64,000 bases of DNA, taken from positions 39,757 through 103,756 of the forward strand of contig QMRC01000006.1 in NCBI GenBank assembly GCA_003649205.1, given 5' to 3'. Below the pieces are notes generated by a model, which ran no database searches, had not been told where the DNA came from, and saw nothing but the letters and a program-made list of their open reading frames with translations. Both the position numbers and the translations under genes were made by a program. Origin of the DNA: Thermoprotei archaeon. GTDB taxonomy: Archaea; Thermoproteota; Thermoprotei; Thermoproteales; B15-G16. Shown here piece after piece: positions 7,008 to 20,241 of the stretch. How positions within the stretch are numbered: position 1 is the stretch's first letter; each line of letters begins with the position of its first letter.

Positions 7008-7668
7008 TATGGAGTTATTGAACATGAGCAATGGCGAGGTAGCATTTGAGAGAATAATTCAAGCATTTAAGTTGGCACTAAATGAATTGATAGCACTGGT
7101 ACCTGTAGTACTAGCATCTGTCCTCATAGTTGCACTCATGCTAGTAATTGCTAAGTACGTAGGTTCTCTTGTCAAGAGGATACTGAAGGTAGTTGGTCTA
7201 GATAGGATACTTGAGAGGTACGTAGGTACACCACCGATATCTGTCGAGAACTTCATCGTCGTATTCATACAGCTGGGCTTCGTAATACTTGGCGTAACAA
7301 TATCCGTGACAGTATTCGCACCTGAGTACCTAGCTACCTACAACATGTACCTATCCTATATACTGAGGTTGATGTCGGCTGTAGCACTCATAATAATAAC
7401 GCTCTTCTGGATAGAGGTACTAGTGAATAAGATTCGTGGTGAGAGCAAGGTAAAGGCATTTGCCTCACTAATAGCCTTCCTCCTAATACTCACCTTCATA
7501 ATCGACGTAACAGCACTATCTGAAAGCGTTAAGTCATCACTCGTATTCGGAATATCCCTTGGACTTGGATTGACAATAGGAGTATTCTCCATATGGTACT
7601 TCATGCATGAATACCTTGAGCACTACATCAGCAGAAAGCATGGAGAGAAAGAGGTCAGACAAGGCTGA
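6997..7668 (+). CDS. TM-helix-repeat membrane protein (MscS/CmpX-like); its 3' end and stop codon lie in the attL core
   Basis: LVPVVLASVLIV...GSLVKRILKVVGLDR pattern; about 5 TM segments. Confidence 0.65.
   Translation: MVRSMELLNMSNGEVAFERIIQAFKLALNELIALVPVVLASVLIVALMLVIAKYVGSLVKRILKVVGLDRILERYVGTPPISVENFIVVFIQLGFVILGVTISVTVFAPEYLATYNMYLSYILRLMSAVALIIITLFWIEVLVNKIRGESKVKAFASLIAFLLILTFIIDVTALSESVKSSLVFGISLGLGLTIGVFSIWYFMHEYLEHYISRKHGEKEVRQG
7652..7668 (+). repeat. attL core, 17-bp direct repeat AGGTCAGACAAGGCTGA
   Basis: Identical to 18439-18455; adjacent to the integrase; internal dyad TCAG-6nt-CTGA. Confidence 0.92.
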
Positions 7669-7678
7669 TTGAGTTCTC

Positions 7679-8842
7679 ATGGAAGAAATCACACCTGATA
7701 GCCCTATCTATCAGGTGAGAATAGGTCTCAATTCGATGGAGTTGCTGAAGCACTTTGAGAGTTGGTTAATTGCTCAGAACCTGTCCGTGGCTACGGTTAG
7801 GTCTCATGTTAGACAGGTTAGGTCTTTCCTCACGTGGTTTGGTAGGTCTATCGAGGATTTGAGTAGTTTCGATATTGCGTGTTACCTAGCTGAGTGCCGT
7901 AAGCGTGGTCTATCTGAGGCTAGTGTGAATCGCTATGCTTCTGCTCTCAAGAAATTCCTGAGGTTCCTAGCTAGTTACTTCAGAGCTAGGAGAAGGGTTG
8001 AGTTAGCTAATTACTTTGAGCAGGTGTACCGTGAGGTCAAGGTACCTAAGTACGACCTAGTTGAGGTCAGCATTAAGCGACACATGGAGCCTGATACAGC
8101 GAGGAAAGTCATAGACTTAATTCATGACCCCTACTGGAAGTGCTTTTTCGCTGTGCTGTATGAGACAGGTCTGAGGTTGAGGGAGCTTAGACAGGTCAAG
8201 GTAAGTGATGTTCACGAGAACAAGCACGGGTTCGAGATAGTTGTCAGAGATAGCAAGACACCTGAGGGAGTTAGGAAAGTGTACGTGGTTGAGTACTATC
8301 AGCTACTGAGGTACTACCTAGAGCATGTACGTCCGAGAGATAGCGAGTGGTTGTTCCCTGCTAGGAGAGACCCAAGGCAACCAATCTCCGAGAAAGCAAT
8401 CTACAGCTTTCTAAACCGCTTCAGAAAGCGGACAGGTATCGTGATTAGTCCACACCGCTTTAGACACGCTAGAGCTACTGAGCTTTACCGCAAGGGAGTA
8501 TCTGAGCAGTCGTTAATGAGGTTGTTTGGTTGGAGGACAAGGACAATGATTGATGTCTACAGTAAGCTTTCACAGCGAGATGTGGAGTCTGAGCTACTGA
8601 GCAAGGTCTACGGGCTATCCCCTGTAGAGAGTGAGAGGTCTCAGACTCGTAAGTGCCCGAGGTGTGGTGCTGAGGTAATACCCACAGCTAGGTACTGTCC
8701 ATACTGTGGTCTAGCCCTAGATATTGCGTCAGTATTAGGCAAAGAGGAACAGGTACGGAAATACGCAGAGCTCATTGAAGCACTGCTGAGGTACCTAGAG
8801 GAACACCCAGAGTACCTGTCGAAACTATTCTCAAGGACTTAA
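7679..8842 (+). CDS. Tyrosine integrase with C-terminal zinc ribbon (SNJ2/pNOB8-like architecture); start may be ATG 7736
   Basis: YETGLR (R), DSKT (K), HRFRH (HxxR), FGW, DVY (Y); C-terminal CPRCG...CPYCG. Confidence 0.93.
   Translation: MEEITPDSPIYQVRIGLNSMELLKHFESWLIAQNLSVATVRSHVRQVRSFLTWFGRSIEDLSSFDIACYLAECRKRGLSEASVNRYASALKKFLRFLASYFRARRRVELANYFEQVYREVKVPKYDLVEVSIKRHMEPDTARKVIDLIHDPYWKCFFAVLYETGLRLRELRQVKVSDVHENKHGFEIVVRDSKTPEGVRKVYVVEYYQLLRYYLEHVRPRDSEWLFPARRDPRQPISEKAIYSFLNRFRKRTGIVISPHRFRHARATELYRKGVSEQSLMRLFGWRTRTMIDVYSKLSQRDVESELLSKVYGLSPVESERSQTRKCPRCGAEVIPTARYCPYCGLALDIASVLGKEEQVRKYAELIEALLRYLEEHPEYLSKLFSRT
7692..7717. repeat. 10-bp inverted repeat CACCTGATAG/CTATCAGGTG beside attL
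   Basis: Perfect 10-bp arms with a 6-nt loop. Confidence 0.7.
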
Positions 8843-8995
8843 AAGCGGACATGAAACACAGGCAGAGAACACCAAGACCCGCCCTATAGTCCAGAGGAAA
8901 TGTTGCCTGAATTCAACAATAGTCTAATATGCGTATACGTGTGAGTGAACAGCGAGCGAGGTAATACACCACTTGAGGATGAATAGGGGCTCCTC

Positions 8996-9064
8996 GGGGG
9001 ATGATGAAGGGCTTAGCGGAGCGACCCCGCAAGGGGGTATGGCTGGACCAGGCTAGCTGACCCC
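8996..9064 (+). ncRNA. Provirus-encoded C/D-box-like sRNA candidate
   Basis: C box ATGATGA 9001-9007, D box CTGA 9057-9060, terminal GGGG/CCCC stem, internal CCCC-GCAA-GGGG hairpin; C'/D' boxes degenerate. Confidence 0.55.
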
Positions 9065-9078
9065 TACCCCCTCGCCCC

Positions 9079-9099
9079 GTGATAATGGGTTATTATCAC
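9079..9099. promoter_or_regulatory. Inverted repeat GTGATAAT-N5-ATTATCAC next to a TATA-like TATTTAAG
   Basis: Perfect 8-bp arms. Confidence 0.45.
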
Positions 9100-9186
9100 C
9101 AATATTTAAGTTTCTATGCAATTACAGTGAAATTACCATGGTTACTTTCTCGTGAGGGGGTTTAAGAACCCTTGATACGTCTTTGC

Positions 9187-9534
9187 TTAGCCTTTCTTTC
9201 TGATTAGTCCTCCTATTGCTCCTCCTATCATTGATAGGAATGCTGAGGCTAGCATCATGAATATTATTGCTAACCCTGCTAACCCACCTGCCCATGCTCC
9301 TAGGAATCCAGCTACTGAGAAGCCTAGTACTGTCAGCACTATTGCTGCTAGTATTCCTCCAATGATTCCACTGAGGAACCCTGCTGCTGCTCCTCTACCT
9401 GCTCCTCCTCCAGCTACTAGACCTGCTATGAAGCCTCCAAGTACTGGTGCGAAGATGTGTAGTATGGGTGAGAGTACGGCTGTAGCTAACATACCTGCAA
9501 AGACACCAGCTATGAAACTCAGTACACGACCCAT
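9187..9534 (-). CDS. Gly-rich small membrane protein (DUF5518-like)
   Basis: APVLGGFIAG...GAAAGFLSGIIGG...IGGAIGG pattern. Confidence 0.65.
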   Translation of the reverse strand: MGRVLSFIAGVFAGMLATAVLSPILHIFAPVLGGFIAGLVAGGGAGRGAAAGFLSGIIGGILAAIVLTVLGFSVAGFLGAWAGGLAGLAIIFMMLASAFLSMIGGAIGGLIRKKG

Positions 9535-9804
9535 GTAGGGAAAACCCCGAGGAAACCAGATACAGAGAGGACATAAAGCAGTTCAGAACATAGAGAGCAA
9601 TGAACCTAGCAACCTCAGAGGACAGAAAACAAGAACGCTCCTCCGGTCGGTGATGAATACTTGTACTTTTCTCTCGGTGACTTTCCTCAAGGCACTAAAT
9701 AAGAAATTGCTCTACTCTACAGTGGTATGGATTCTGAGGATTTTTGGATTGGTTTTCTCCTTGGTTACAGTACTGGTCTTATTCATGCGAAAAACTTAAC
9801 AACT

Positions 9805-10188
9805 TCAGAACTTGTCTTCAGGCTCATTTCCTGTTCCTTCATGCTCAGTGAGTTGTTGGGTACTAGACTTAATGAGTTCTTCAGCTCTTTGGAGAAGTTC
9901 AGCGACTTCACGACCCTTCTCAGTGAGCTCAATGTACCTAAGACCGTGCTTGGTATACGTCCTAACAAGACCGTACTGAAGACAGGTACTGAGGGCTCTG
10001 TAAGTACTGACAGGTGAGATACCGTATCTCTGAAGTTCTCTAATGTGCATAGCTCTACCTGTTTTGTGAAGAATTAGCAGCAATTTAATTCCCGGTCTAC
10101 CTAAGTCATCAGCTAGAGCTGACATTTTCCTCTGTCGTTTTCTGGTGATAAACCTAATAACGATATCTTCGAGCATTCGTAACCTCAT
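9805..10188 (-). CDS. Winged-helix DNA-binding protein (SSV1 F93-like); start may be 10125
   Basis: ISPVSTYRAL...GLV...RYIELTEKGREVAE wHTH signature. Confidence 0.75.
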   Translation of the reverse strand: MRLRMLEDIVIRFITRKRQRKMSALADDLGRPGIKLLLILHKTGRAMHIRELQRYGISPVSTYRALSTCLQYGLVRTYTKHGLRYIELTEKGREVAELLQRAEELIKSSTQQLTEHEGTGNEPEDKF

Positions 10189-10199
10189 TCTCAGTCTAT

Positions 10200-10286
10200 A
10201 CCCGATTTAGAGGTATCACGTAATAATATTACAACGCTATATCTCGAAACTGATAAATTGTTATAACGTTACAGAGTTGTAACAGG
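10200..10286. promoter_or_regulatory. Divergent promoter/operator region between the wHTH and RHH genes
   Basis: Dyads GTAATAATATTAC (10220-10232), GTTATAAC (10260-10267), GTTAC-N6-GTAAC (10268-10283). Confidence 0.55.
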
Positions 10287-10484
10287 GTGAGAGAGGTGCC
10301 TAAGAGTAAGGTGCCTATGGTCTTGGTTACCTTCCATATCCCGATACCACTCCTTAGAGAACTTGACAGGTTGGTGGAGGAGGGTAAGTTCCCGAGCAGG
10401 AGCGAGGCGATAAGGCACGCAATAATCCAACTCCTAGCTCGTGAGCGTCAAAGAACACAAATACACGAGGTGTTGGTAGCGTGA
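10287..10484 (+). CDS. Ribbon-helix-helix (CopG family) regulator
   Basis: VTFHIP..LLRELDRLVEEGKFPSRSEAIRHAI. Confidence 0.88.
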   Translation: MREVPKSKVPMVLVTFHIPIPLLRELDRLVEEGKFPSRSEAIRHAIIQLLARERQRTQIHEVLVA

Positions 10485-10729
10485 CCATTGTCAACTATGT
10501 CGAGGTAATTAGGAACATCATACTCAATGCTTTGAAGGAGCATGGCTACATTAGTGACCTAGAGCTTGTTAGGGCTGTCAAAGAGGCTACGGGACTCAGC
10601 TACGTAGACTTTGCTCCCATTCTTGAGCAGGTACTGAGTGAGCTAATGAGGTCTGGCGCAATTAGACGTGTAATGTCAGCAAGCAACCCGAGAAAGGTCG
10701 AGCATGGGTGGGAGCTGTGTACACAATAA
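10481..10729 (+). CDS. Small putative wHTH viral protein
   Basis: Overlapping stop/start (GTGA); LSELMRSGAIRR motif. Confidence 0.55.
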   Translation: MTIVNYVEVIRNIILNALKEHGYISDLELVRAVKEATGLSYVDFAPILEQVLSELMRSGAIRRVMSASNPRKVEHGWELCTQ

Positions 10730-11073
10730 AGCCGAATGGATTCTACCTCAGGTTGGTTTTGGATGCACTGAAGTACTGTGCTAGGACTGAAAGAGGCTCT
10801 ATTGTGTCTATTTACCCAAAGAAAGTCGCTAAGTTAAATGGGTACAGTGTTCGTGCATGTGGGAGGTATAGAGATGACAGTGAGGTAGAGAGGTCGCTAT
10901 CCCCTGCCGAGCTATCTATCATTAGGTACTGGCTGGATTACCTCTGGGTCAATGGGCTGTGTAGCCGTGAGAAGACTAGTCGTGACAGGTGGAACTACGT
11001 ATTCCCGAGGGAGAACTTGCCTAAGGCTATCAAGCTACTTGAGGAGGTGCTCAATGGTGAAGTACAAGATTGA
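10708..11073 (+). CDS. Hypothetical viral protein
   Basis: ORF within a tightly packed operon. Confidence 0.6.
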   Translation: MGAVYTIKPNGFYLRLVLDALKYCARTERGSIVSIYPKKVAKLNGYSVRACGRYRDDSEVERSLSPAELSIIRYWLDYLWVNGLCSREKTSRDRWNYVFPRENLPKAIKLLEEVLNGEVQD

Positions 11074-11194
11074 GGAGATAGTCAAGGAGTTGAAGGTTGC
11101 TCTCAGGGATAGAGAACTCAGAGAAGCATTGCTGAAGCACTTCTCCAACAACCCAAAGGCTCAAGCAATCATACTACTCCTGTCAGGTGAGTGA
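11054..11194 (+). CDS. Small hypothetical viral protein (MVKYKIEE...)
   Basis: GAGGAGGTG RBS before ATG 11054; stop overlaps the next start. Confidence 0.55.
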   Translation: MVKYKIEEIVKELKVALRDRELREALLKHFSNNPKAQAIILLLSGE

Positions 11195-11433
11195 GCATGA
11201 TTGAGCTGAGTTTCAAGACGAAGCGGGACTTCGATAACTGGGTTAAGGCGCTGTATGACTTCGGTTCGAATCACTGTGTTGAGCCTGTCGTCATCAAGCT
11301 AGATGGTAATGACCTCTACGACAGGTACATGGTCTGCATTGTGTACCATGCTTGGACTGAGGAAGGTGCTTACGCAGTGACCTGTCTAGCCCGCATAGTA
11401 GCGATAGTGTACAGGGAAGGTGAGCAGAAGTGA
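11191..11433 (+). CDS. Hypothetical viral protein
   Basis: GGTGA RBS; coupled starts and stops. Confidence 0.55.
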   Translation: MSMIELSFKTKRDFDNWVKALYDFGSNHCVEPVVIKLDGNDLYDRYMVCIVYHAWTEEGAYAVTCLARIVAIVYREGEQK

Positions 11434-11612
11434 GTCGCTACCACGGGCACAAGGTAACTATCACGATTATTGCGACAACAGGTTCTGGACTACCGACAGG
11501 TGAGCGAAAGAGCGATTTCATTAGATTCATGGTCGAGCAGGTACTGGAACGTGAGCTTTCTAAGAGGCTCCGTGATTTCCGTGTCCTCAAAGTCATGGTG
11601 AAGGTGATGTAG
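11430..11612 (+). CDS. Hypothetical viral protein
   Basis: GGTGA RBS; coupled start. Confidence 0.5.
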   Translation: MSRYHGHKVTITIIATTGSGLPTGERKSDFIRFMVEQVLERELSKRLRDFRVLKVMVKVM

Positions 11613-11691
11613 ATGGTTCCTGCTACTACTACCTATTCTATTTCTAGTAATTCGTTTAGACAAAATACGCGGGACATTAAACGCGGTTCAG

Positions 11692-11816
11692 ATTGGAACC
11701 AATGTTCCCTCTCAGAGGAATCATTGAAACCAATCATTGGAATCAATGTCAGTGGTATGATTGGAACCAATGATTGGAACCAATCATTCCACTCGCTTAG
11801 TCTCATTGGTTCCAAA
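11692..11816. repeat. Cluster of six ATTGGAACCAAT-type dyad repeats
   Basis: Copies at 11692, 11723 (1 mismatch), 11736 (1 mismatch), 11760, 11773 and inverted at 11805. Confidence 0.85.
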
Positions 11817-11827
11817 AACGGAGAGAG

Positions 11828-12151
11828 GTGTTGAGTATCCCCCGAATAACTATCTACATCCATGAGAGCGATTGGGAAAAGCTGACGAAAATAGCTGAGC
11901 AGAGAGGACAATCAATGTACAGCATAGTGAAGCAAGTAGTACTTGAGTTCCTGAAGCTAAGTAACCCAATTGTTGCTCATGGTAAGCTTTCTAGGGATTT
12001 AGCTACCTGTCGGAGCATTATCAAGCGATTTGGTTGGTGTGCTCTCTGCATACATGCTGAGGTTGTTGGTGATAGGTTAGTCTGCAGAAAGACAGGCAAA
12101 GTCATAGAAAAACCCATATGGCAATGCCCACACCCCATACCCAAGGTGTAA
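11828..12151 (+). CDS. RHH protein with C-terminal Cys/His zinc-binding motif
   Basis: RITIYI...WEKLTKIAEQRGQSMYSIVK; CALC.H...C...C. Confidence 0.7.
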   Translation: MLSIPRITIYIHESDWEKLTKIAEQRGQSMYSIVKQVVLEFLKLSNPIVAHGKLSRDLATCRSIIKRFGWCALCIHAEVVGDRLVCRKTGKVIEKPIWQCPHPIPKV

Positions 12152-12160
12152 ATCATGCTT

Positions 12161-12184
12161 TTTACACAGCTGCAGCTGTGTAAA
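12161..12184. repeat. Perfect 24-bp palindrome TTTACACAGCTGCAGCTGTGTAAA
   Basis: Read directly; further GTGTAAA-like half-sites at 12146, 12190 and 12207. Confidence 0.85.
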
Positions 12185-12227
12185 TGATTTTTACTCACTG
12201 ACAGGTGCGTAAATTTGGTGAGAATTC

Positions 12228-12596
12228 ATGTCCGAGATGGAGAAGTTAATTAGGAACCTGAACATACTGCGAAACTACTTCAGCAAGGTACCACCTGAAG
12301 TCATTGAGGCTCTCATGTACTTTGAGGATAGGTTCTTCACTGAGAAATACCATGTTGTTCGCTCTAAGACAGGTAGGGAGTATCGCTACAGGTACCTCTA
12401 CATCAGGTTGAATGACTACAGGACACTAGGTTACTTCAGGATAAATGATAGCAATGATGAATTGCTGCTACACGAAATTAGGCAGGTCAAGGCATTTTCA
12501 CAAGCACTACTACAGTACATAGCAATGCTCAGACACAGCAAACTAGCAAACCTCACCAAAATTTACTCAAGGACCTTGAGTAAAAACAACCAATAA
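12228..12596 (+). CDS. Hypothetical viral protein
   Basis: GGTGA RBS; basic/aromatic KTGREYRYRYLY segment. Confidence 0.6.
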   Translation: MSEMEKLIRNLNILRNYFSKVPPEVIEALMYFEDRFFTEKYHVVRSKTGREYRYRYLYIRLNDYRTLGYFRINDSNDELLLHEIRQVKAFSQALLQYIAMLRHSKLANLTKIYSRTLSKNNQ

Positions 12597-12657
12597 CACA
12601 TCAGCAATTGGGGAAATTGAATTGGGGTGATGCCCCCTGAACCTCAAGGTCTATTTC

Positions 12658-13644
12658 GTGAAGAAAACTAGGCAATACGAGGTCTATGAGGGCTCTAGGA
12701 GAATCCTCAGGACTAAGGTACATGCAAAAGCTCACGAGTACCTATCGAAACAAATCAATTCAAGTTTTGAGTTCTACTTTGTTTGTTGCAATAGGGAGCA
12801 CCTGTTAGCATGTTCACGTTTCTTTGAACTCACAGGTCGCAGGCTCAATGTGTTGATTAGTTACAACTTCATACGTGACAGGTACCTCACACAGGTGCTT
12901 CAGCAAGTTAGACCACACCTAAGCAAAGTCATGATTGATTCAGGTGCTTTCCATGTACTTATCCGCAAGGTACCCCTGGAAAAGTTCCAGAGCTACATAG
13001 GTGAGTACGTGAATTGGCTCAACAACCACACAGAGCTTTACGACTACTGTGTCGCACCTGACGTACCCTGTGATGAACGACCCGCAGAAAAAATCCAGAA
13101 ACTACCAAACAGGTACAAGATAGAGCTAACCATAGCTAACACAGTTCACTGGATAGATAGGTTGACAGACCCTCGCAAGGCTGTGGCTGTAGTTCAGGGT
13201 TATTTCGTGAATGAGTACCTGCTCTGTGCTGAGAAGCTGAAAGAACTCGGGCTCACAACAGCAAAGACAGGTGTCGGCTCTTTATGTGTCAGGAAATACA
13301 GTAGACAACAAGCACGTGAAGTACCACAGATACTAGCTAGCATAAGACAGGTCTTACCGTCATGGGTGAAACTTCACGCATTCGGTCTTCAGCTAGATTT
13401 CTTACCGACCTGTCTCAAGTACCTACACAGCTCAGACAGTGCCTCATGGCAATTAAGTTACTCAAAGTTCAATAGGATACGAATAGCGAACCTGTCGACA
13501 GGTCAAACAGTTGAGCTTGATTTAGTTAGTCATGGCGGAGCGAGGAAAAAGAACCTAGACCAAGTCACGATATACACATACAACCTCTTAGCCTACTGGA
13601 ATAGAGTTCAGCAACTAACGAGACAGGCAGCACAGACAAAATAA
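12658..13644 (+). CDS. TGT/DpdA-like guanine transglycosylase (putative 7-deazaguanine DNA insertion enzyme)
   Basis: Ordered TGT-fold motifs IDSGAF, APDVP, VVQG, GVGSL, LHAFG, SSDSASW. Confidence 0.75.
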   Translation: MKKTRQYEVYEGSRRILRTKVHAKAHEYLSKQINSSFEFYFVCCNREHLLACSRFFELTGRRLNVLISYNFIRDRYLTQVLQQVRPHLSKVMIDSGAFHVLIRKVPLEKFQSYIGEYVNWLNNHTELYDYCVAPDVPCDERPAEKIQKLPNRYKIELTIANTVHWIDRLTDPRKAVAVVQGYFVNEYLLCAEKLKELGLTTAKTGVGSLCVRKYSRQQAREVPQILASIRQVLPSWVKLHAFGLQLDFLPTCLKYLHSSDSASWQLSYSKFNRIRIANLSTGQTVELDLVSHGGARKKNLDQVTIYTYNLLAYWNRVQQLTRQAAQTK

Positions 13645-13663
13645 AGTAAGTGTTGAAAACTGC

Positions 13664-14428
13664 TCAAGTCCCCATGTTCTCTATCTCATGTCCTGTAGGG
13701 TATAGGTTCAGTTTCTTTATGTACTTGTACACTGTTTGACGTGAAACACCGAGTGCTCTAGCTATATCACTTATACTGTAACCTTTCTTCAACATATCCT
13801 CAATAGTCTTCTCCCTATTAGCAGTCTGGATAGCTACCTGTAAGTCCATGAACACCTTCTCAACAAAGAGCCTCCTCATTTCCTGATACTTCACATAGAT
13901 GTCGTGGTCTAGCTTAGGCACGAAGGTATCTACACCAATTTCCTTCACCACGAACTTACCCGTAGGAGTCCACGTAAACCTGTAGATGTGTGCCTCTCTC
14001 TCACCTTGCTTACTCTTCCTAATGTGTACATGTATCCAACACATCTCACGTAGTGCTCTTAAGAGCAGGCGATAGGTAGGTACCGTGAATATGACAGCAC
14101 CTGTCACAGTCCTAGCAACCTCAAGGAACTTTACAAATAGCTGACGGTCTTCTTTAAGAAAGTCATATTTGCTTATCCACACACCAGCATCATCATAGCA
14201 CAGACACTTAACACGCTTACGATACCTAAGACACTCCCTAATAATTGGGAAAGACTGCTTAACATCGAAGAATACGTAGTTGAGAGCAGTCTCCCTACAA
14301 TACAGCTCACTCAAGACCTTGATAGCGTAGGTAGTCTTACCAACCCCTTGCTGACCCTGAATAACAATAACCTCAAATCCATTGTTCCTGAAAGCACGCT
14401 CAATTATCTTAGTTAGGACAAACGGCAT
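13664..14428 (-). CDS. P-loop ATPase similar to fusellovirus B251, with C-terminal HTH
   Basis: GQQGVGKTTYAIKV, YDDAGVWISKY, ARTVTGAVIFTVP resemble SSV1 B251 as I recall it; SISDIARALGVSRQTVYKY HTH. Confidence 0.8.
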   Translation of the reverse strand: MPFVLTKIIERAFRNNGFEVIVIQGQQGVGKTTYAIKVLSELYCRETALNYVFFDVKQSFPIIRECLRYRKRVKCLCYDDAGVWISKYDFLKEDRQLFVKFLEVARTVTGAVIFTVPTYRLLLRALREMCWIHVHIRKSKQGEREAHIYRFTWTPTGKFVVKEIGVDTFVPKLDHDIYVKYQEMRRLFVEKVFMDLQVAIQTANREKTIEDMLKKGYSISDIARALGVSRQTVYKYIKKLNLYPTGHEIENMGT

Positions 14429-14431
14429 ACC

Positions 14432-14734
14432 TCACTCCTCCTCAATCTCCTCCTCACGACCAACAGGTATGAACCTCTTACGACCCATTACATGCGTTAT
14501 AGTCCTGAAGAACTTAGCAAACGATAGCAGAGCTGAGTAACCACGACCGCCCTCAGCTAACCTCAACTCAAGGTAAGGTATGATGAATGAGTCTCTCAAG
14601 TCCTGAAGGTTGTACCTGTCGCATATGAAGAGCAACGTAGCTATCTTACGAGCCTCACCATACTGCAACCTAGTTAAGCGAAGTATGTTCCCCGAGGTAA
14701 GAGCCTCAATTAGTTCCTCTGACATGAGCCTCAC
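14432..14734 (-). CDS. Hypothetical viral protein
   Basis: GAGGTGA RBS; operonic. Confidence 0.6.
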   Translation of the reverse strand: MRLMSEELIEALTSGNILRLTRLQYGEARKIATLLFICDRYNLQDLRDSFIIPYLELRLAEGGRGYSALLSFAKFFRTITHVMGRKRFIPVGREEEIEEE

Positions 14735-14735
14735 C

Positions 14736-15191
14736 TCACAGGTGAATGATACCGAACTTCACGAGCATGAACATGATGTACGCACCTATGATTAACCCAC
14801 AAATCAGAGCAATGATGACAGGAGTAGCCCTAACAGGTACCTTCTCCGTTAGCAGAGCCCTCAGTACCTGTCCCTTGATAATCTGCGATATAGTGTCACT
14901 ATCAATGTAGGGGTCTTGATATTGACCACAGAAGTACACTATCTTTCTGACAGGTGCCCACACCTTCACGTCTCTAAACACCCTAACCCTACCCCCAGCA
15001 AGCACCAGCTTCCTCTCCGGATTGAGCAATTTAGCAGGCGTAATCTCGACATGCTTATCGTTCACGATAATAGCTATGTGCTTTGACCTGAAGATACGTC
15101 CTTCAGGTCTCGCTAGGAACATCATGATGAATGTGACAGGTATAGCTACGCAGTATATTGCGACTAGGATAGGGCTCAACATAGGGCTCAC
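14736..15191 (-). CDS. Viral membrane protein (N- and C-terminal TM)
   Basis: Two hydrophobic termini; operonic. Confidence 0.65.
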   Translation of the reverse strand: MSPMLSPILVAIYCVAIPVTFIMMFLARPEGRIFRSKHIAIIVNDKHVEITPAKLLNPERKLVLAGGRVRVFRDVKVWAPVRKIVYFCGQYQDPYIDSDTISQIIKGQVLRALLTEKVPVRATPVIIALICGLIIGAYIMFMLVKFGIIHL

Positions 15192-15713
15192 CTACAGAGT
15201 CTTCTCAGCTTCAGCAATGAGCTTGTTCAGGACCTGCTCAACCCTCTCAATTCGCTTAGCTAACTCACTGAGCCTATCCTCACTATGATTTGAGCCTAGC
15301 TTACTCACGTCGATAGCGTCTAGGAATATCGAGAGCGGAACAGCAATAGCGTACTCAAACCTCTCAACCTTACCACTCTGCTCGACAGGTATCGTAACTT
15401 GCTGAGCCTCCCTCTCCCTCACCAAAATCAGAACACGGTCAGGATTCCTAACCGCAGAGACAGGTAGCTTAGACAGGTACGGTCTCCTACCTGTCTCACT
15501 TTCGGACGTGTACGGTCTACCTCTCTGAAAGTGAAGTACTAAGCACAGAGCACCGAGACTAGCTAGAGCAATGAAACCAACCCACTTCAGCGTAAAGACC
15601 GCTCCAGAGGATATCTTAGCAGTCAGTGGTGACAGGTATGGGTCATACCAAATCAAGTACATGACTGCACCTGTGAGCAGTGCTGTGCTCAGGTAAAGGA
15701 AACGAGTACTCAC
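15192..15713 (-). CDS. Viral membrane protein with C-terminal coiled coil
   Basis: Two N-terminal TM segments; GAGGTGG RBS. Confidence 0.65.
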   Translation of the reverse strand: MSTRFLYLSTALLTGAVMYLIWYDPYLSPLTAKISSGAVFTLKWVGFIALASLGALCLVLHFQRGRPYTSESETGRRPYLSKLPVSAVRNPDRVLILVREREAQQVTIPVEQSGKVERFEYAIAVPLSIFLDAIDVSKLGSNHSEDRLSELAKRIERVEQVLNKLIAEAEKTL

Positions 15714-15838
15714 TTACAACCCACCTCACTTATGTAAACTTTTTCACAAAAACCATAAGGTCAACTTGCGAGATATCCTGAATAATCACTGAACACGGAG
15801 CAAACCTGAGACAGGTCGAAAAGTAGGAGGTGAAGTAG

Positions 15839-16198
15839 GTGGACATAGACCTAGGGAACATCCTGAGAGCTGTCCTGTTTGTAGCCCTAATACCCACGCT
15901 ATTCGGAGCTATAGCTGGATTCGTTGACCCTTCACTACAACCAATGATACAGCCCCTACTCAGCCTAGTACCAATGCTCATAATCCTCAACCTAATCAAA
16001 GACCTGTTCTCAGAAGCTGGAGCAAAGGGATTCGTCAAGATATTCGATATCCTACTGCTCGTAATGATGTTACCTGTCCTAATCAACATGTTCGGAGCAG
16101 CCACAGGACAAAACGAAGCACTAGCACAAGTCTCAGGACTCCTACAGCAACTCCTACCAATCCTACTATTCATCAAGCTCATCGAAGAGATGGTTTAG
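15839..16198 (+). CDS. Putative major capsid protein with two tandem SSV1-VP1-like helical hairpins
   Basis: Strong RBS AGGAGGTGA; repeats VALIPTL...LLSLVPMLII and VMMLPVL...LLQQLLPILL. Confidence 0.62.
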   Translation: MDIDLGNILRAVLFVALIPTLFGAIAGFVDPSLQPMIQPLLSLVPMLIILNLIKDLFSEAGAKGFVKIFDILLLVMMLPVLINMFGAATGQNEALAQVSGLLQQLLPILLFIKLIEEMV

Positions 16199-16219
16199 TT
16201 CCTTCGAGGTGATTAAGCT

Positions 16220-17974
16220 ATGAAACCCAAGCCCCTTTTTGCAATCTTAACAGTACTCACTCTAGTGCTCATAGTGGCGGTTGTTAATGCTGGTGAGTAC
16301 ACGCTATACGATGTACTTCAGTACGCTCATGAGGTACATGTCTTCGGAAAGACATACAACACAGCAAGTTATGGCACCACAACTTACTCTGGGACATGGA
16401 ATCTAACTGATGTTGTGTCGGGGAGGAAAGTTACATTTGGCTACAGGCAATACCTACAAGACCCAGATAGCTCCGACACAATCGTTATTGTGTTTCAGAA
16501 GAATACAGCTATCGAGGTCGGTACTGGTAGCGGGAAGTGTGTCTACGGTAAACCTGTCGTAATTACGTATGATACTGAAACAGGAAGGAGGACTATGTAC
16601 TACATTGATGGCGGTGAACTGAAGAAAGTAGGTGAATTCACTGGTGGTACCTACGTCTACTGGAACGGTACAAAGTTATGTCAAGCACTACGTTTCAAGG
16701 ACTGGTTAGATTTCCACAAGTTCTTTAACAACACATGCATGTTAATACTCCCAGACATCACGACATACGACTACAGGATAATTGATGGGTCTTCCGAGCT
16801 ATTAAAGGATAAGTGTGGTGGAAATGGTTTCCACACCCTCATTATCTTCGGTGGTGAGTACCTAAACAAATCGATAATTGTTGAAGTTGCTGGAGCCTAC
16901 GGAATCAAGAACATAACGCTCACTACAGAACTCAACACAGTCTACACGATTGACCCAAAGCACTTGAAGTTAGCTGTGTTCACAGGTAACCTAACGGAGA
17001 CGCTATCGAGGGCGAGCCAGAGCACAGAGGAAAGTACACAGGAAAGTACAACTAACACGACAAACGAGACCTCAACACCAACCACAGCACCAGAGACGAA
17101 GGTGTACAAGGTCACGATACATGTCTACGATGTGGATACCAATGAGGAAATCACATCAGCAATGGTTAAGGCGGGTTGGTTCACGAAGACAGGTTCACCT
17201 GTTACCTTTGAGTTCAAGTGGAAGGAACCACAGTGGTTACCTATCTCAGCTAGTGCTACAGGTTACAAGTCCTTCAGCACAACTATCTGGGTCGATACCA
17301 ACATGACGCTGTGGGTAGGGCTAGTCAAGGAAACCTCGAACAGCACCGAGCAATACAGTAAATTACTGAGGCTCGGTGTCTCAATTGCGGGTGTTGGTTC
17401 AACTCCATATTGGGCTCAGGAAAACAAGACATTCACAGAGTGGGCTAATGAGGTTGAGCAGTTACTATCCTCATCACAGGCTCCTGAGGTTAAGTATGAG
17501 ACTACGTGGTATGGTTTGAAGATAGTCGCTGTGAAGGTACCTTCAGGTAGACCAGCATACGGAGTAGCGACTATTGTCGCTGTTAAGAAAGGATTTCTCG
17601 GTACCCTAACATGGGAAGAAGAACTCGGTACTGTGCAAATAGTGAATGGTACGGGTTATTTCCATGTTGACTACGAGACAATCAAGAACAAGCTACAACT
17701 CAAAGAGTGGGGAGGGGAGTACTTCTACGGTTTCAAGATTGTATGGAAGGTCGGTGACCTAGACCCAGAGGTCGAGGTTGTACCTGTCAAGAATACATGG
17801 ACGCCTGTCTACATTCAGGTGAATGAGCAGACAGGAACCTACTCAGCAACAACACTACCACAGACAGCATTAACGAATGTCGGAACATCACTAACACAGA
17901 TGCTCATAACCCTACTACCACTGTTCATCATATTCGCACTCATTGGAGCTATTACAGGTCGTAGAAGGCGATAG
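16220..17974 (+). CDS. Secreted, membrane-anchored virion spike/adsorption glycoprotein
   Basis: Signal peptide, many N-x-S/T sites, Thr/Glu-rich linker, C-terminal TM followed by RRRR. Confidence 0.7.
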   Translation: MKPKPLFAILTVLTLVLIVAVVNAGEYTLYDVLQYAHEVHVFGKTYNTASYGTTTYSGTWNLTDVVSGRKVTFGYRQYLQDPDSSDTIVIVFQKNTAIEVGTGSGKCVYGKPVVITYDTETGRRTMYYIDGGELKKVGEFTGGTYVYWNGTKLCQALRFKDWLDFHKFFNNTCMLILPDITTYDYRIIDGSSELLKDKCGGNGFHTLIIFGGEYLNKSIIVEVAGAYGIKNITLTTELNTVYTIDPKHLKLAVFTGNLTETLSRASQSTEESTQESTTNTTNETSTPTTAPETKVYKVTIHVYDVDTNEEITSAMVKAGWFTKTGSPVTFEFKWKEPQWLPISASATGYKSFSTTIWVDTNMTLWVGLVKETSNSTEQYSKLLRLGVSIAGVGSTPYWAQENKTFTEWANEVEQLLSSSQAPEVKYETTWYGLKIVAVKVPSGRPAYGVATIVAVKKGFLGTLTWEEELGTVQIVNGTGYFHVDYETIKNKLQLKEWGGEYFYGFKIVWKVGDLDPEVEVVPVKNTWTPVYIQVNEQTGTYSATTLPQTALTNVGTSLTQMLITLLPLFIIFALIGAITGRRRR

Positions 17975-17977
17975 AGC

Positions 17978-18280
17978 ATGACTAACCGCTACGTCTACCT
18001 TGGAAAGAAAGTGAAGGACATAGGCAAGAAAGGACTAGACCGACCAAGCGAGTACCTAGCAATAGCGAGAGCTATAGCACAAGACTACAAGGCTGGTAGG
18101 ATAAGTAAAAAGACTGCTCACGGACGCTTTTTACTACTTTACAGGCTCGTGGATAAGAATAGCAAGCTGAAGGTACCTAAGTCAGTTAAGGAACGTCTCA
18201 AACGCAAGATTAAGGAAATCTGGATGAAGACCATTGGAGGTGGGAAGGTGGCTCGAAAGAGGAAAAGAAAGAAAAGGTAG
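17978..18280 (+). CDS. Highly basic putative virion DNA-binding protein
   Basis: Very high K/R content; last gene of the structural operon. Confidence 0.6.
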   Translation: MTNRYVYLGKKVKDIGKKGLDRPSEYLAIARAIAQDYKAGRISKKTAHGRFLLLYRLVDKNSKLKVPKSVKERLKRKIKEIWMKTIGGGKVARKRKRKKR

Positions 18281-18438
18281 GCTCAAGTCACATCACCTGT
18301 ATGTCGCTCTAACTACCTAATTTCTTGAGCTTGCTCTAGTCCTCAAGAATTCTTTACACATGTCTCATGTCCTGCGACCTGTCACCTAGACCTGAACTAG
18401 CTCAAGACAGAAGGTGGGTGACTTCTCTCAACTTATTT

Positions 18439-18455
18439 AGGTCAGACAAGGCTGA
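18439..18455 (+). repeat. attR core, 17-bp direct repeat
   Basis: Identical to 7652-7668. Confidence 0.92.
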
Positions 18456-18490
18456 ATTCTTCACGGATCTGCCTCGCCTGGGCTCATCAT
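18442..18490 (-). ncRNA. C/D-box guide sRNA (predicted 16S rRNA helix-27 region); integration target of the provirus
   Basis: ATGATGA-gcccaggcgagg-CAGA-tcc-GTGAAGA-attcagccttgt-CTGA; guides complement conserved archaeal 16S CGCCUGGG and GCAAGGCUGAA. Confidence 0.88.
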
Positions 18491-18534
18491 AAAGCAGCCA
18501 ATTACCTACTCTCGAGACCCTCTAATAAAGATCA

Positions 18535-19293
18535 CTAATCAGCAATCACATACCTAACCTCACCAGTGAAGCACCACTCACTCTCATCACTACGTTTGAG
18601 ATCCACATCTACACACTTCTGCTGAAGATACAGTATTAGTTCTCGACTCGGGATTGCCTCACTAGGTAGTGAATCAAGAACACGTCTATACTGTACAGCT
18701 ATGATTCCATCGAAGTACTTACTTAGCTCCTCAACTGACTCAACAACCTTACTCTCTGGAATTAACTCAATACCGAAGAGGATGTAAGCAATGAAGCTAA
18801 CCTCATCACCATAAACTTCACGACATTTCTCCCTAAGAGCATTCAACCTCACAATCTCACTCTGAGGAATACCCTTACACAACACAGCATTTCTCAGGTA
18901 CTCATCCCAAACCTCAATACCAACCCTAATAACGAGCCTACTAGGTTTAAGCAGCTCAAGCACCTGTCTCACAGAGTCAAAACTTAGGTACTCAGGTCTA
19001 GACTCAATATCCACAATTCTACCACAGGTAAATCTAGAGAGCTTGAGCACGGTATCCAGAGGTAGCTCAAAGAATGAACCACCATTAAATACAGTAATTC
19101 TCTCAATACTAAACCTCAGGGTAGCATCTTCCAGAAGCGACAATATCTTGTCATTTGTCTGAATTACATCGGATAGTGAGTTACCTGCCTCAAGGAAGAA
19201 GGGACAGAAGACACATCTACCCCAACGACATCTAAATCCCTTGAGTATCACGATAGCTCTCTTCCTAGATCTCTCAATCACAACACCTAGCAC
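18535..19293 (-). CDS. Radical SAM protein, RaSEA (archaeosine lyase, TIGR01210)-like
   Basis: CRWGRCVFC, FNGGSFF, DIESRPEY, VGIE motifs. Confidence 0.72.
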   Translation of the reverse strand: MLGVVIERSRKRAIVILKGFRCRWGRCVFCPFFLEAGNSLSDVIQTNDKILSLLEDATLRFSIERITVFNGGSFFELPLDTVLKLSRFTCGRIVDIESRPEYLSFDSVRQVLELLKPSRLVIRVGIEVWDEYLRNAVLCKGIPQSEIVRLNALREKCREVYGDEVSFIAYILFGIELIPESKVVESVEELSKYFDGIIAVQYRRVLDSLPSEAIPSRELILYLQQKCVDVDLKRSDESEWCFTGEVRYVIAD

Positions 19294-19990
19294 TGAGAAT
19301 CTCCCTCAAACCACTAATTAACTTACTCAAACTAGTTGGAGTTATGAGTATGAGATCTGGATCATCGTAGTAACCACCTAGAGATACCTCATCAAGCTCA
19401 TGAGGAGGTACCTCATTAACTCTCGCAGCTAAGTTCTTAACCTCAATACCTAGCATGGAACAAGCACGCTCTAGAGCAGCATAGCTATCTGAATCCCACC
19501 TTAGATACGACACAAAGCACTCATAATAACTCCTAAATCTACTCAGGAACAATCTCAATCTCTCACAGGTAACCTCCCTATAGAGTACCTTCACTTCACT
19601 AGTTTCATACTTAGGATTCCAGTCATACGCACAATAGGGGTAGTACTCTTCAAGCTCTCTCGGTACGATACCGGCATTCGTTATAATGACTTGATGAATA
19701 TCCTCGTAGTACCTACCTAACGACTTCAAAGCCCTAATTATGAAGTAGTGTATGTAGGATTGAGAGTACGGCTTACCGTAAGCACATGGTAGGAAGAGAC
19801 AGACTCTATACCTCTTCCTTGGCTTCCACTCAGTTAGTAATCTCTTAAAACCCTCTTCAAAGAATGGGTGCTTAAGGTACCTAAGACCTACACCTCTGAG
19901 GAATTCCCTACCATCACCAGACCAGATAAGTTCGTGACCATCCCAAATAACGTACAAGCTAGATCCCTCAAGAAGTTCTCCACAAACCAA
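19274..19990 (-). CDS. Stand-alone DUF5591 (ArcS catalytic-domain-like) protein
   Basis: FLPCAYGKPYSQSYIH, GIVPRELE..YP...YD motifs. Confidence 0.78.
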   Translation of the reverse strand: MVCGELLEGSSLYVIWDGHELIWSGDGREFLRGVGLRYLKHPFFEEGFKRLLTEWKPRKRYRVCLFLPCAYGKPYSQSYIHYFIIRALKSLGRYYEDIHQVIITNAGIVPRELEEYYPYCAYDWNPKYETSEVKVLYREVTCERLRLFLSRFRSYYECFVSYLRWDSDSYAALERACSMLGIEVKNLAARVNEVPPHELDEVSLGGYYDDPDLILITPTSLSKLISGLREILSARCCD

Positions 19991-20043
19991 TACACTCTAA
20001 TAATTCTTAGCAATTCTTCCCCTAAAGAATAGGTCAAGACGAG

Positions 20044-20241
20044 GTGATGTATTTGTCAACTAAGAAACGTGAAGAGAGATGGGGTACGTGCCCGAAGTGT
20101 GGTGGAGGATTGAGAAGGAGAAATCACCCAGAGATATTCCAGTGTAGGAAGTGTGGTACGTACTTCTGTGGTAGGTGTTGGAAGGCAGAATTCATGTCCT
20201 ATGCAGAAGCTTTAGAGCACTTAAAGGACTGTACTGGTTAA
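20044..20241 (+). CDS. Small zinc-finger protein
   Basis: CPKC, CRKC, CGRC, H..C. Confidence 0.6.
   Translation: MMYLSTKKREERWGTCPKCGGGLRRRNHPEIFQCRKCGTYFCGRCWKAEFMSYAEALEHLKDCTG

What the first reader, a model, noticed from the sequence alone, without database searches (positions are those of the whole stretch)
12658..13644. Viral TGT/DpdA-like base-exchange enzyme with no preQ0 synthesis genes
Seen: the ordered motifs DSGAF, PDVP, VQG, GVG, HAFG and DSASW match the TGT barrel, including both catalytic Asp positions; no PUA or Zn-site tRNA-binding extension is evident. Established: DpdA paralogs of TGT insert 7-deazaguanines (preQ0/G+) into phage and halovirus DNA as anti-restriction marks, and archaea make preQ0 for archaeosine. 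Inference: a small crenarchaeal-type virus hypermodifies its genome using host preQ0, which would extend deazaguanine DNA modification to a new virus group.
Basis: partly seen in the sequence, partly recalled or inferred. Interest (0 to 1): 0.82.

Follow-up and report, generated by a model that had tools for sequence, protein, structure and literature searches.

The report
DpdA transglycosylase on small archaeal provirus
A 10.8-kb virus-like element integrated in a hot-spring-type archaeon carries a DpdA-type guanine-swapping enzyme that probably marks the element's DNA with a 7-deazaguanine base, although neither the element nor its host can make that base from scratch.

Summary
ORF 12658-13644 (328 aa) is a TGT-fold enzyme (VIA Z 21.2). 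It reaches the Pfam DpdA cut-off exactly (27 bits) and keeps all three active-site aspartates of Salmonella DpdA (D94, D135, D260). It has no Zn site and no PUA domain.

It lies on a 10,787-bp insertion flanked by a perfect 17-nt repeat. Empty sites occur in a sister genome and in an independent metagenome. The element shares an integrase and a DnaA-like ATPase with fuselloviruses and Archaeoglobales pleolipoviruses.

The element has no preQ0 genes, but the host also lacks QueC, QueD, QueE and FolE/FolE2. The host does keep arcTGT, an ArcS/radical-SAM pair and two YhhQ-type transporters, so any 7-deazaguanine must be salvaged.

DpdA genes were already known in crenarchaeal rudiviruses and STSV viruses, and dCDG has been measured in STSV-2 DNA (PMC6884629, PMC10516641).

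Verdict: a new, divergent member of a known kind, in a new and very small virus type. The chemistry is untested.

An earlier scan note on this genome flagged the heptamer GACAGGT. I confirmed it is enriched about 18-fold in the element.

The parts
12658..13644 (+). DpdA-family guanine transglycosylase gene (328 aa). D94 is the general acid/base, D135 recognises the base and D260 is the nucleophile. No Zn site and no PUA domain.
7652..7668 (+). attL: left copy of the perfect 17-nt direct repeat. It overlaps the stop codon of host ORF 6997-7668.
   Evidence: (2 matches, 0 expected)
18439..18455 (+). attR: right copy of the 17-nt repeat.
   Evidence: Empty site in G001 and in an X2 contig.
7679..8842 (+). 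Tyrosine integrase with a C-terminal zinc ribbon, intact and next to attL.
   Evidence: Pfam Phage_integrase 3.4e-24; phrog_1 7.9e-39. Best viral matches are two Archaeoglobales pleolipoviruses at 95% coverage.
9187..9534 (-). DUF5518 membrane protein (5 hydrophobic segments).
   Evidence: (6.9e-10)
9805..10188 (-). Winged-helix-type transcription regulator.
   Evidence: phrog_12817 1.5e-6
10287..10484 (+). CopG/RHH repressor, first gene of the + strand block that ends with DpdA.
   Evidence: Pfam RHH_1 4.1e-9; phrog_4738
11690..11815 (.). Intergenic cluster of ATTGGAACCAAT-type repeats in both orientations. Candidate origin or operator.
   Evidence: Function not tested.
11828..12151 (+). RHH-like small protein with C-terminal Cys pairs.
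   Evidence: Pfam RHH_1 7.5e-4, just below its cut-off; phrog_582 Arc-like 0.005
13664..14428 (-). DnaA-like AAA+ ATPase with C-terminal HTH, the gene shared with fuselloviruses and pleolipoviruses.
   Evidence: phrog_5484 7.5e-41. tblastn gave 72 virus records, 57 of them Sulfolobus SSVs; best is SMF1 at 35% identity, 87% coverage, 2e-31.
14736..15713 (-). Two membrane-protein ORFs (151 and 173 aa) with no family match.
15839..16198 (+). 119-aa protein with four hydrophobic segments. Candidate VP3-like virion membrane protein, by position only.
   Evidence: No Pfam or PHROG match.
16220..17974 (+). 584-aa Ser/Thr-rich protein with an N-terminal signal-like segment and a C-terminal anchor. Candidate spike, by architecture only.
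   Evidence: No relatives found.

Best explanation
ORF 12658-13644 encodes a stand-alone DpdA-type DNA-guanine transglycosylase carried by a 10.8-kb temperate, enveloped-type archaeal virus (or virus-derived element). By analogy with characterised DpdA and TGT enzymes, D260 attacks C1' of a target deoxyguanosine and D94 protonates the leaving guanine. A free 7-deazaguanine base then resolves the covalent enzyme-DNA intermediate; preQ0 is most likely, CDG is possible. This leaves a 7-deazaguanine in the element's DNA after replication, which would blunt host nucleases. The element makes no precursor and the host lineage has lost de novo preQ0 synthesis. The base must therefore come from the pool the host imports for its own archaeosine pathway (YhhQ-type transporters, arcTGT, ArcS-like and radical-SAM pair). 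Shown: the fold, the family, conservation of the catalytic residues, the mobility of the element, and the gene content of element and host. Inferred: DNA rather than RNA as substrate, the identity of the base, its salvage origin, and the anti-restriction role.
For: Fold: Foldseek hits are all TGT/DpdA, and VIA gives Z 21.2 over 279 residues. The AF2 model has pLDDT 82.8 and pTM 0.86. Family: PF23859 at its cut-off. 49 of 50 aligned relatives match PF23859, while 13 of 50 also match TGT. In the Atlas, 21 of 30 feature hits are DpdA clusters at 0.95, and the best structural hit (TM 0.73) is an archaeal DpdA cluster. The profile hits DpdA 7ui4 (9.9e-8) slightly ahead of arcTGT 1iq8 (3.7e-7). The catalytic D94, D135 and D260 are invariant in 50 sequences and align to residues whose mutation abolished DpdA activity (D95A, D256A; PMC10164549). 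tRNA-binding modules are absent (and the sequence). Viral DpdAs work alone: expressing phage 9g dpdA alone put dPreQ0 into plasmid DNA (PMC6884629). Mobility: 17-nt att repeat and empty sites in G001 and in an X2 contig (depth about 36, against 0-14 for element fragments). Precursor logic: the host keeps arcTGT (268.7 bits), an ArcS C1 protein with the exact PC-x3-KPY-x2-S-x2-H motif and an adjoining CxxxxCxxC protein, and two Vut_1/YhhQ genes (176 and 141 bits). It lacks QueC, QueD, QueE and FolE. Zallot 2017 proposes archaeal preQ0 salvage through YhhQ homologues (PMC5372724).
Against: There are no chemical data. The Pfam score is exactly at threshold, and the NCBIfam DpdA equivalog scores 31 bits against a cut-off of 200. 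The nearest experimentally validated DpdAs are remote: CAjan at hhalign 96.9% probability and 20% identity, and STSV2_15 at 97.7% and 14%. Precedent against: phage Orion has DpdA only, its host has no pathway, and no modified base was detected. STSV-2 carries only 0.04% dCDG of unknown origin (PMC6884629, PMC10516641). Position 180 is Gln, as in tRNA TGTs, and not the His181 of bacterial DpdA. Absence of host pathway genes rests on assemblies 93.8% and 71% complete. FolE and FolE2 were tested only in G000. Most relatives with an intact QueC also have a Vut_1 gene (27 of 31 genomes), so the transporter is not specific evidence for salvage.
Confidence: 0.55

Rival explanations
1. The enzyme is catalytically competent but in this host has no 7-deazaguanine to insert. 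The element's DNA is then unmodified or modified only in traces, and the gene is kept for another reason, such as use in other hosts that make preQ0, or guanine-for-guanine exchange without consequence.
For: The host lacks all four preQ0 steps. Orion (DpdA only, host without the pathway) had no detectable modification, and STSV-2 had 0.04% dCDG (PMC6884629; PMC10516641). The closest deposited relatives include DpdA-only temperate mycobacteriophages.
Against: The host retains arcTGT, ArcS-like and radical-SAM genes that are useless without preQ0, and it has two YhhQ-type transporters. This argues that a precursor pool exists. The gene takes 9% of a 10.8-kb genome and keeps every catalytic residue.
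Confidence: 0.2
2. The enzyme acts on RNA (host tRNA or another structured RNA) rather than DNA, for example to restore or redirect deazaguanine modification of tRNA during infection.
For: Q180 is the TGT-type residue. VIA ranks tRNA TGTs first at Z 20-21; DpdA 7ui4 is not among the 50 rows shown there and is Foldseek rank 25. 13 of 50 relatives also match Pfam TGT.
Against: It has no PUA, C1 or C2 domains and no Zn subdomain, which tRNA TGTs use to hold tRNA (sequence). No PF01702 hit at E<=10. The relatives are overwhelmingly PF23859 (49 of 50). All tested members of the viral DpdA cloud act on DNA (PMC10516641). The host already has its own arcTGT.
Confidence: 0.1
3. The element is an integrated plasmid or a defective remnant and not a virus, and DpdA serves the element or host in the integrated state, for example by marking chromosomal DNA.
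For: No capsid or spike protein could be identified by sequence or fold. X1 contigs show equal depth for element and flanks and no circular junction. Distant TGT-like genes in related genomes sit in cellular defence-like islands.
Against: The ATPase and integrase are best matched by virus genomes. A multi-TM ORF followed by a signal-plus-anchor glycoprotein mirrors the pleolipovirus VP3-VP4 order. No restriction or helicase genes accompany DpdA in the element. The element is polymorphic in populations.
Confidence: 0.12

Closest known systems
Viral DpdA of DpdA-only temperate viruses (Mycobacterium phage MacnCheese gp42 and relatives; Caudoviricetes sp. vir519 of Methanofastidiosa, phrog_1279)
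   Same: Best matches among 50,697 deposited virus records: vir519 at 30.5% identity, E 5e-15, and mycobacteriophages at 25%. Same broad clade in the tree (53-row group). About 260-330 aa, stand-alone, no preQ0 genes nearby, next to an integrase in MacnCheese.
   Different: The window protein belongs to a separate, well-supported 7-row clade (SH-aLRT 96, quick tree). That clade has only 10 close clusters among 5.8 billion proteins. The protein has an extra N-terminal beta-hairpin/helix segment. The carrier is a 10.8-kb non-tailed element.
Bacterial DpdA of the Dpd restriction-modification system (Salmonella Montevideo, PDB 7ui4)
   Same: Same fold and same three aspartates, Phe gate and Gly loop. 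Best PDB sequence hit of the family profile (9.9e-8).
   Different: bDpdA was assayed with DpdB and ATP (PMC10164549); no DpdB-like gene is in the element. bDpdA has His181 where this protein has Gln180, and a 128-residue Ins8 insertion that is absent here. The NCBIfam equivalog scores 31 bits against 200.
DpdA of crenarchaeal viruses STSV1/2/4 and rudiviruses (SIRV1-11, SBRV1, SRV)
   Same: Stand-alone DpdA in viruses of Thermoproteota without preQ0 synthesis genes. The STSV-2 host also lacks the pathway, yet dCDG is present in the virus DNA (PMC10516641).
   Different: Only remotely related: BLASTP E 0.027 and hhalign 14% identity. STSV2_15 falls outside the 53-row DpdA group, weakly joined to the host arcTGT. 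STSV and rudiviruses pair DpdA with a viral ArcS C1 gene, whereas here the only ArcS C1 gene is a host gene outside attR. None of the 38 records matching STSV2_15 is an SSV-type fusellovirus or a pleolipovirus.
Phage CAjan DpdA (DpdA1; genetically shown to be essential for dPreQ0 in DNA)
   Same: DSGAF, HAFG and DSSSW-type motifs align (hhalign 96.9%, E 1.7e-10).
   Different: 20% identity. CAjan's gene sits in a full folE-queD-queC-queE plus transporter cluster, while the window element has none.
Archaeosine tRNA-guanine transglycosylase (arcTGT, PDB 1iq8)
   Same: Same catalytic barrel (profile E 3.7e-7). preQ0 is its natural substrate.
   Different: No C1, C2 or PUA domains and no PF01702 hit. 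The host has its own 542-aa arcTGT on another contig.

Membership tests
TGT superfamily (TIM-barrel base-exchange transglycosylases) | TGT-type (beta/alpha)8 barrel fold | tested here: met
   All 50 listed Foldseek hits are TGT or DpdA, E about 1e-7. VIA Z 21.2, rmsd 3.7 A, 279 residues aligned to 7nq4_A.
TGT superfamily (TIM-barrel base-exchange transglycosylases) | Three active-site aspartates: general acid/base, base recognition, nucleophile | tested here: met
   D94, D135 and D260 are invariant in 50 sequences. They align to D95, D130 and D256 of 7ui4. Roles from PMC10164549.
DpdA (Pfam PF23859) | Score at or above the Pfam gathering cut-off | tested here: met
   27.0 bits against a cut-off of 27, so borderline. 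49 of 50 aligned relatives match, best 8.5e-35. A whole-genome search also calls it over the cut-off.
DpdA (Pfam PF23859) | Lacks the tRNA-binding modules of tRNA TGTs (Zn subdomain; C1/C2/PUA) | tested here: met
   No PUA, TGT_C2 or DUF5591 hit at E<=10. No Cys after D260 (sequence).
DpdA (Pfam PF23859) | Exchanges guanine in DNA for preQ0 or another 7-deazaguanine | not testable with these tools
   Needs LC-MS of DNA or an in vitro exchange assay.
Bacterial DpdA of the Dpd system (NCBIfam NF041059 equivalog) | Equivalog score of 200 bits or more, and a DpdB partner | tested here: not met
   31.2 bits. Pfam and PHROG scans of the element's ORFs show no ParB-like/DpdB-type gene.
arcTGT / bacterial TGT (Pfam PF01702) | PF01702 match over cut-off with C-terminal tRNA-binding domains | tested here: not met
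   No PF01702 hit at E<=10. The host's own arcTGT scores 268.7 bits.
DpdA4 (DUF6610, PF20314; halovirus type, as described in PMC10516641) | Match to PF20314 | tested here: not met
   No such hit at E<=10.
STSV/rudivirus-type DpdA | Recognisable sequence similarity and a shared clade | tested here: not met
   BLASTP E 0.027. Neither tblastn search cross-hits the other group. Separate placement in the quick tree.
Fuselloviridae | DnaA-like ATPase core gene | tested here: met
   phrog_5484 7.5e-41. 57 of 72 matching records are Sulfolobus SSVs.
Fuselloviridae | SSV-type integrase that is split by integration; VP1/VP3 capsid proteins (features recalled) | tested here: inconclusive
   The integrase is intact beside attL, unlike the recalled SSV type. 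No capsid family hit.
Pleolipoviridae (Archaeoglobales members GacPV1, ThalV2) | VP3-like membrane protein, VP4-like fusion protein, conserved NTPase | tested here: inconclusive
   NTPase 26-28% identity at 89-96% coverage and integrase 26% at 95% coverage. The VP3/VP4 candidates match only in order and topology. No Rep gene was found.

The most novel reading that the evidence does not exclude
The DpdA is sequence-specific for the heptamer GACAGGT, which the element carries 38 times (one per 284 bp, both strands, all frames) against about 2 expected. The virus would then write a dense, genome-encoded array of 7-deazaguanine marks using a base scavenged through its preQ0-auxotrophic host. That would be a self-marking system in one of the smallest dsDNA viruses known to modify its DNA. 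Other DpdA-bearing loci show their own over-represented CAGG-core heptamers, for example TCAGGAT at 10 copies in 3 kb in L016.
Probability: 0.1. Interest if true: 0.8.

Novelty: new member of a known kind. Interest (0 to 1): 0.45.

Why it matters
If the element's DNA is modified, this would be the first 7-deazaguanine DNA modification in a fusello-/pleolipovirus-like virus and in a virus of Thermoproteales. At 10.8 kb it would also be by far the smallest genome known to invest in it; the gene is 9% of the element. The host context sharpens a question the field has left open. [quoted passage not shown] Here the host lineage has lost preQ0 synthesis but keeps the enzymes that consume preQ0, plus YhhQ-type transporters. 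That makes environmental salvage a concrete, testable source for both host tRNA and viral DNA.

Tried and rejected
1. A PDB sequence search with the single protein found only a chance thioredoxin-reductase hit (E 0.96). The profile was needed.

2. I looked for shared gene context. tblastn of all element ORFs against 12 related loci and 3 genome regions found only DpdA shared, apart from one weak ATPase hit in L010. DpdA therefore moves between unrelated elements. L011 (46-kb IMG/VR contig) carries a phage-tail-domain protein, methyltransferases and glycosyltransferases.

3. I tried to show that the 584-aa protein is a viral spike. It has no match in 50,697 virus records, no relatives among 5.8 billion proteins, and Atlas scores of 0.77 with TM<0.3. 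I ran no further search on a single sequence.

4. I tested whether the exact heptamer GACAGGT is enriched in other DpdA loci, and it is not. The looser CAGG-core trend is confounded by different hosts and has exceptions (L020 at 0.83, L019 at 1.11; control L014 at 1.66). I keep it only as a lead.

5. For expression, no RNA holder was listed.

6. For an excised or circular form, none was seen in X1 contigs, but contigs cannot exclude it. The X2 joint 11714->14463 (side 45, 20 foreign letters) is too weak to call a DpdA-less variant.

7. ARAGORN found no tRNA in the window. The element integrates at the 3' end of a protein gene and not at a tRNA.

8. The careful tree search did not finish in 300 s, so only the quick tree is reported.

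9. QueD and QueE searches are patchy even in relatives (19 and 21 of 29), so their absence counts for less than that of QueC.

10. Supplementary tables of Hutinet 2019 and Cui 2023, which list all DpdA-encoding viruses, were closed. They could name a virus type that I call new.
Full report
**The gene**

The ORF listing gives one ORF at 12658-13644 (+), 328 aa, with a GTG start.

Pfam returns a single family, DpdA (PF23859), at 27.0 bits, exactly the gathering cut-off. The NCBIfam DpdA equivalog gives 31 bits against a cut-off of 200. PHROGs gives phrog_1279 'queuine tRNA-ribosyltransferase' at 4.1e-11. No TGT (PF01702), PUA, TGT_C2 or DUF6610 hit appears even at E<=10.

**Relatives**

The word-indexed search of 5.8 billion proteins finds 10 clusters besides the query. 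They are 42-47% identical, all metagenomic, and all pre-annotated PF23859.

The exhaustive HMMER search of 1.84 billion representatives finds 266 proteins at E<=1e-3, 59 at 1e-10 and 7 at 1e-30, mostly 250-300 aa.

I aligned the query with 49 relatives that I picked (alignment A3). The invariant columns are D94, D135, Q180, G181, H240, G243 and D260. 49 of the 50 members match PF23859 and 13 of 50 also match PF01702.

**Fold and active site**

AlphaFold2 on the 11-sequence alignment gives pLDDT 82.8 and pTM 0.86. The weak loops are at 99-103, 265-267 and 292-296.

All listed Foldseek hits in the PDB are TGT or DpdA. VIA-align gives Z 21.2, rmsd 3.7 A and 279 aligned residues to human TGT, with the other listed TGT entries between Z 20.0 and 21.1.

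The A3 profile hits two PDB sequences only: the DNA preQ0 insertase DpdA 7ui4 (9.9e-8) and arcTGT 1iq8 (3.7e-7). Allowing for the 20-residue tag offset of the 7ui4 chain, D94, F98, D135, Q180, G181 and D260 align with D95, F99, D130, H181, G182 and D256.

PMC10164549 (passages read) assigns D95 as general acid/base, D256 as nucleophile, and D130 and H181 as the readers of the base edge. It reports that D95A and D256A abolish guanine exchange.

The Atlas look-alike search agrees. 21 of 30 feature hits are DpdA clusters at 0.95, and the best structural hit (TM 0.73) is an archaeal DpdA cluster.

The last 68 residues contain no Cys, so a TGT-type zinc site is absent.

**The carrier**

The window is part of contig C6 of a 2.07-Mb, 31-contig assembly that is 93.8% complete.

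A tyrosine integrase with a zinc ribbon lies at 7679-8842. A perfect 17-nt direct repeat sits at 7652-7668 and 18439-18455, with two matches in the window and none in 100 shuffles.

In G001, the only other genome of the genus, window 5603-7668 (92% identity) and 18439-20100 (90%) are contiguous and overlap by exactly 17 bp.

Independently, a contig of run X2 (another study) joins 7651 to 18439, skipping 10,787 bp, with 17 letters fitting both sides. Its depth is about 36. X2 fragments of the element itself lie at depth 0-14, against 36-71 for the flanks.

The element is therefore a 10,787-bp site-specific insertion at the 3' end of a host gene, and it is polymorphic in nature.

**What kind of element**

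The 254-aa ATPase (13664-14428) matches phrog_5484 'DnaA-like replication initiation protein' at 7.5e-41. It matches 72 virus records, 57 of them Sulfolobus spindle-shaped viruses. The best is SMF1 at 35% identity and 87% coverage.

Both the ATPase and the integrase also match two Archaeoglobales pleolipoviruses, GacPV1 and ThalV2, at 89-96% coverage.

Those viruses have the gene order integrase, VP3-like, VP4-like fusion protein, then NTPase. The element has a 119-aa four-segment membrane ORF directly followed by a 584-aa protein with a signal-like N-terminus and a C-terminal anchor. Neither is detectably similar to VP3 or VP4 or to anything else.

I therefore call it a fusello-/pleolipovirus-like provirus of unresolved morphotype. 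A plasmid-like element is not excluded.

**Precursor supply**

No preQ0 gene lies in the element.

The host lacks them too:
- QueC models hit only the 60-residue PP-loop part of two unrelated ORFs, at 25-34 bits against a cut-off of 150.
- PTPS/QueD, FolE2 and FolE give no match.
- A QueE model gives no match at 1e-8.

G001 behaves the same for QueC, QueD and QueE. Among the 29 genomes searched from the two sister families, 29 have a full-length QueC-like match (17 of 31 genomes over the cut-off), 19 have QueD and 21 have QueE-like.

Yet the host keeps genes that consume or import preQ0:
- A 542-aa arcTGT (268.7 bits) and a 351-aa TGT-like gene.
- A stand-alone ArcS C1 protein at 19274-19990 (-). 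Its sequence carries the PC-x3-KPY-x2-S-x2-H motif quoted in PMC10516641.
- An overlapping CxxxxCxxC protein at 18535-19293 (-), RaSEA-like by recall.
- Two Vut_1/YhhQ genes at 176 and 141 bits; G001 has one at 135 bits.

The ArcS-like and radical-SAM genes are host genes, because they are conserved in G001 beyond the empty site.

Zallot 2017 (passage) had already suggested a preQ0 salvage pathway in archaea with COG1738 homologues.

The caveats are the incomplete assemblies and the fact that 27 of 31 relatives have a Vut_1 gene regardless of pathway.

**Comparison with the literature**

Hutinet 2019 (PMC6884629; abstract and passages) reports the following:
- 182 viruses with DpdA and/or G+ pathway genes, 16 of them archaeal (12 Ligamenvirales, 2 Bicaudaviridae).
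- A largest group of 76 phages with DpdA only.
- Orion (DpdA only, host without the pathway) is unmodified.
- Expression of 9g dpdA alone inserts dPreQ0 into plasmids.

Cui 2023 (PMC10516641; passages) defines DpdA3 and DpdA4. It finds dCDG at 0.04% of G in STSV-2, which encodes only DpdA and a C1-only ArcS, and whose host has no pathway.

My searches of 50,697 virus records show two disjoint sets. The window protein hits 9 records: one Methanofastidiosa tailed virus, seven mycobacteriophage records and one uncultured phage. STSV2_15 hits 38 records: STSV1/2/4, rudiviruses, two cyanophages and one Thermocrinis virus. No SSV-type fusellovirus or pleolipovirus appears in either set.

The window family is remote from STSV2_15 (BLASTP E 0.027, hhalign 97.7% at 14% identity) and from CAjan DpdA (96.9% at 20% identity).

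The quick ML tree has 58 rows: all 50 of A3, 6 references and 2 host TGTs. The careful search did not finish. The query sits in a 7-row clade (SH-aLRT 96) inside a 53-row group (87). That group contains vir519 and MacnCheese gp42 and excludes CAjan, STSV2_15, the G004 TGT-like protein and the host arcTGT.

Two full-text searches found no paper linking fuselloviruses with DpdA or deazaguanine. The one preprint holding all terms places the TGT genes in tailed haloviruses.

**Distribution**

In 120 genomes of the host's class, the family profile hits 6, all in the same order:
- G000 itself.
- A 182-aa C-terminal fragment in G022 (PF23859 at 31.9 bits).
- A contig-end fragment in G094.
- Three distant TGT-like genes in G004, G114 and G089.

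In G004 and G114 these lie in a syntenic island. Annotated in G004, the island holds a PLD-like nuclease, a BrxC/D-like ATPase and a second TGT+DUF6884 protein. That is a cellular system, not this provirus.

**The heptamer**

Prompted by an earlier scan note, I counted GACAGGT/ACCTGTC. There are 38 copies in the element against 8 in the other 53.2 kb of the window. An order-1 Markov model expects 2.1 (Poisson p 8e-34), while three host segments of equal length reach at best 3e-10.

The copies lie in all frames: 18 sense, 17 antisense and 3 intergenic.

The same heptamer is not enriched in other DpdA loci. Several of those have their own CAGG-core heptamers, and CAGG observed/expected is 1.3-3.5 in most DpdA loci against 0.5-1.0 in loci of the window's own genome. 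There are exceptions among the DpdA loci, and a control from another genome (L014) reaches 1.66.

This is a lead to a possible DpdA target or to a viral DNA-binding-protein site, and no more than that.

**Verdict**

The most likely mechanism is post-replicative exchange of guanine for a salvaged 7-deazaguanine in the element's DNA (confidence 0.55). The rivals are:
- An enzyme idle for want of substrate (0.2).
- An RNA target (0.1).
- A non-viral carrier (0.12, not exclusive of the others).

It is a new, divergent member of the known DpdA kind, in a new small virus type and a new host order.

Noticed in passing
window 7652-18455: The heptamer GACAGGT/ACCTGTC occurs 38 times in the element against 8 in the remaining 53 kb (expected 2.1, p about 1e-33). 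It lies in all frames and on both strands. Other DpdA-bearing loci show different CAGG-core heptamers, for example L016 with TCAGGAT x10 in 3 kb.
   Followed up: partly
window 18535-19990 (- strand): Host gene pair just outside attR: a stand-alone ArcS C1-domain protein with the exact PC-x3-KPY-x2-S-x2-H motif, overlapping a CxxxxCxxC radical-SAM-like protein. The pair is conserved in G001, so it is not part of the provirus.
   Followed up: partly
whole genome G000 (and G001): The host genus appears to be a preQ0 auxotroph. No QueC, QueD, QueE-like, FolE or FolE2 was found, yet arcTGT, a second TGT-like gene (C11), ArcS-like and radical-SAM genes and two YhhQ/Vut_1 transporters (C2:66830-67312 and C2:73371-73847) are present. 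Sister families have QueC in 29 of 29 genomes.
   Followed up: partly
window 11690-11815: An intergenic cluster of at least six ATTGGAACCAAT-type units in both orientations, upstream of the RHH/122-aa/DpdA genes. Candidate replication origin or operator.
   Followed up: no
L033 (G004:C1:178000-197500) and L035 (G114:C16:1-12000): A syntenic cellular island found in both genomes. Annotated in G004, it holds a PLD-like nuclease, a 614-aa TGT-like+DUF6884 protein, a BrxC/D-like ATPase and a 304-aa TGT-like protein. It looks like a defence-type system built around two TGT-fold proteins in Thermoproteales genomes.
   Followed up: partly
L034 (G022:C6) 9402-9950: A 182-aa ORF that is only the C-terminal half of a close DpdA relative (40% identity; PF23859 at 31.9 bits). 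It is probably a decayed remnant of a similar element.
   Followed up: no
window 6997-7668: The integration target is the 3' end, including the stop codon, of a host protein gene with a mechanosensitive-channel TM-helix match. It is not a tRNA gene, and no tRNA is present in the 64-kb window.
   Followed up: partly
run X2 laid on window 11714-14463: One low-depth X2 contig joins 11714 to 14463 with 20 foreign letters between. It might be a variant of the element lacking the DpdA-ATPase segment, but the evidence is too weak (side 45) to call.
   Followed up: no
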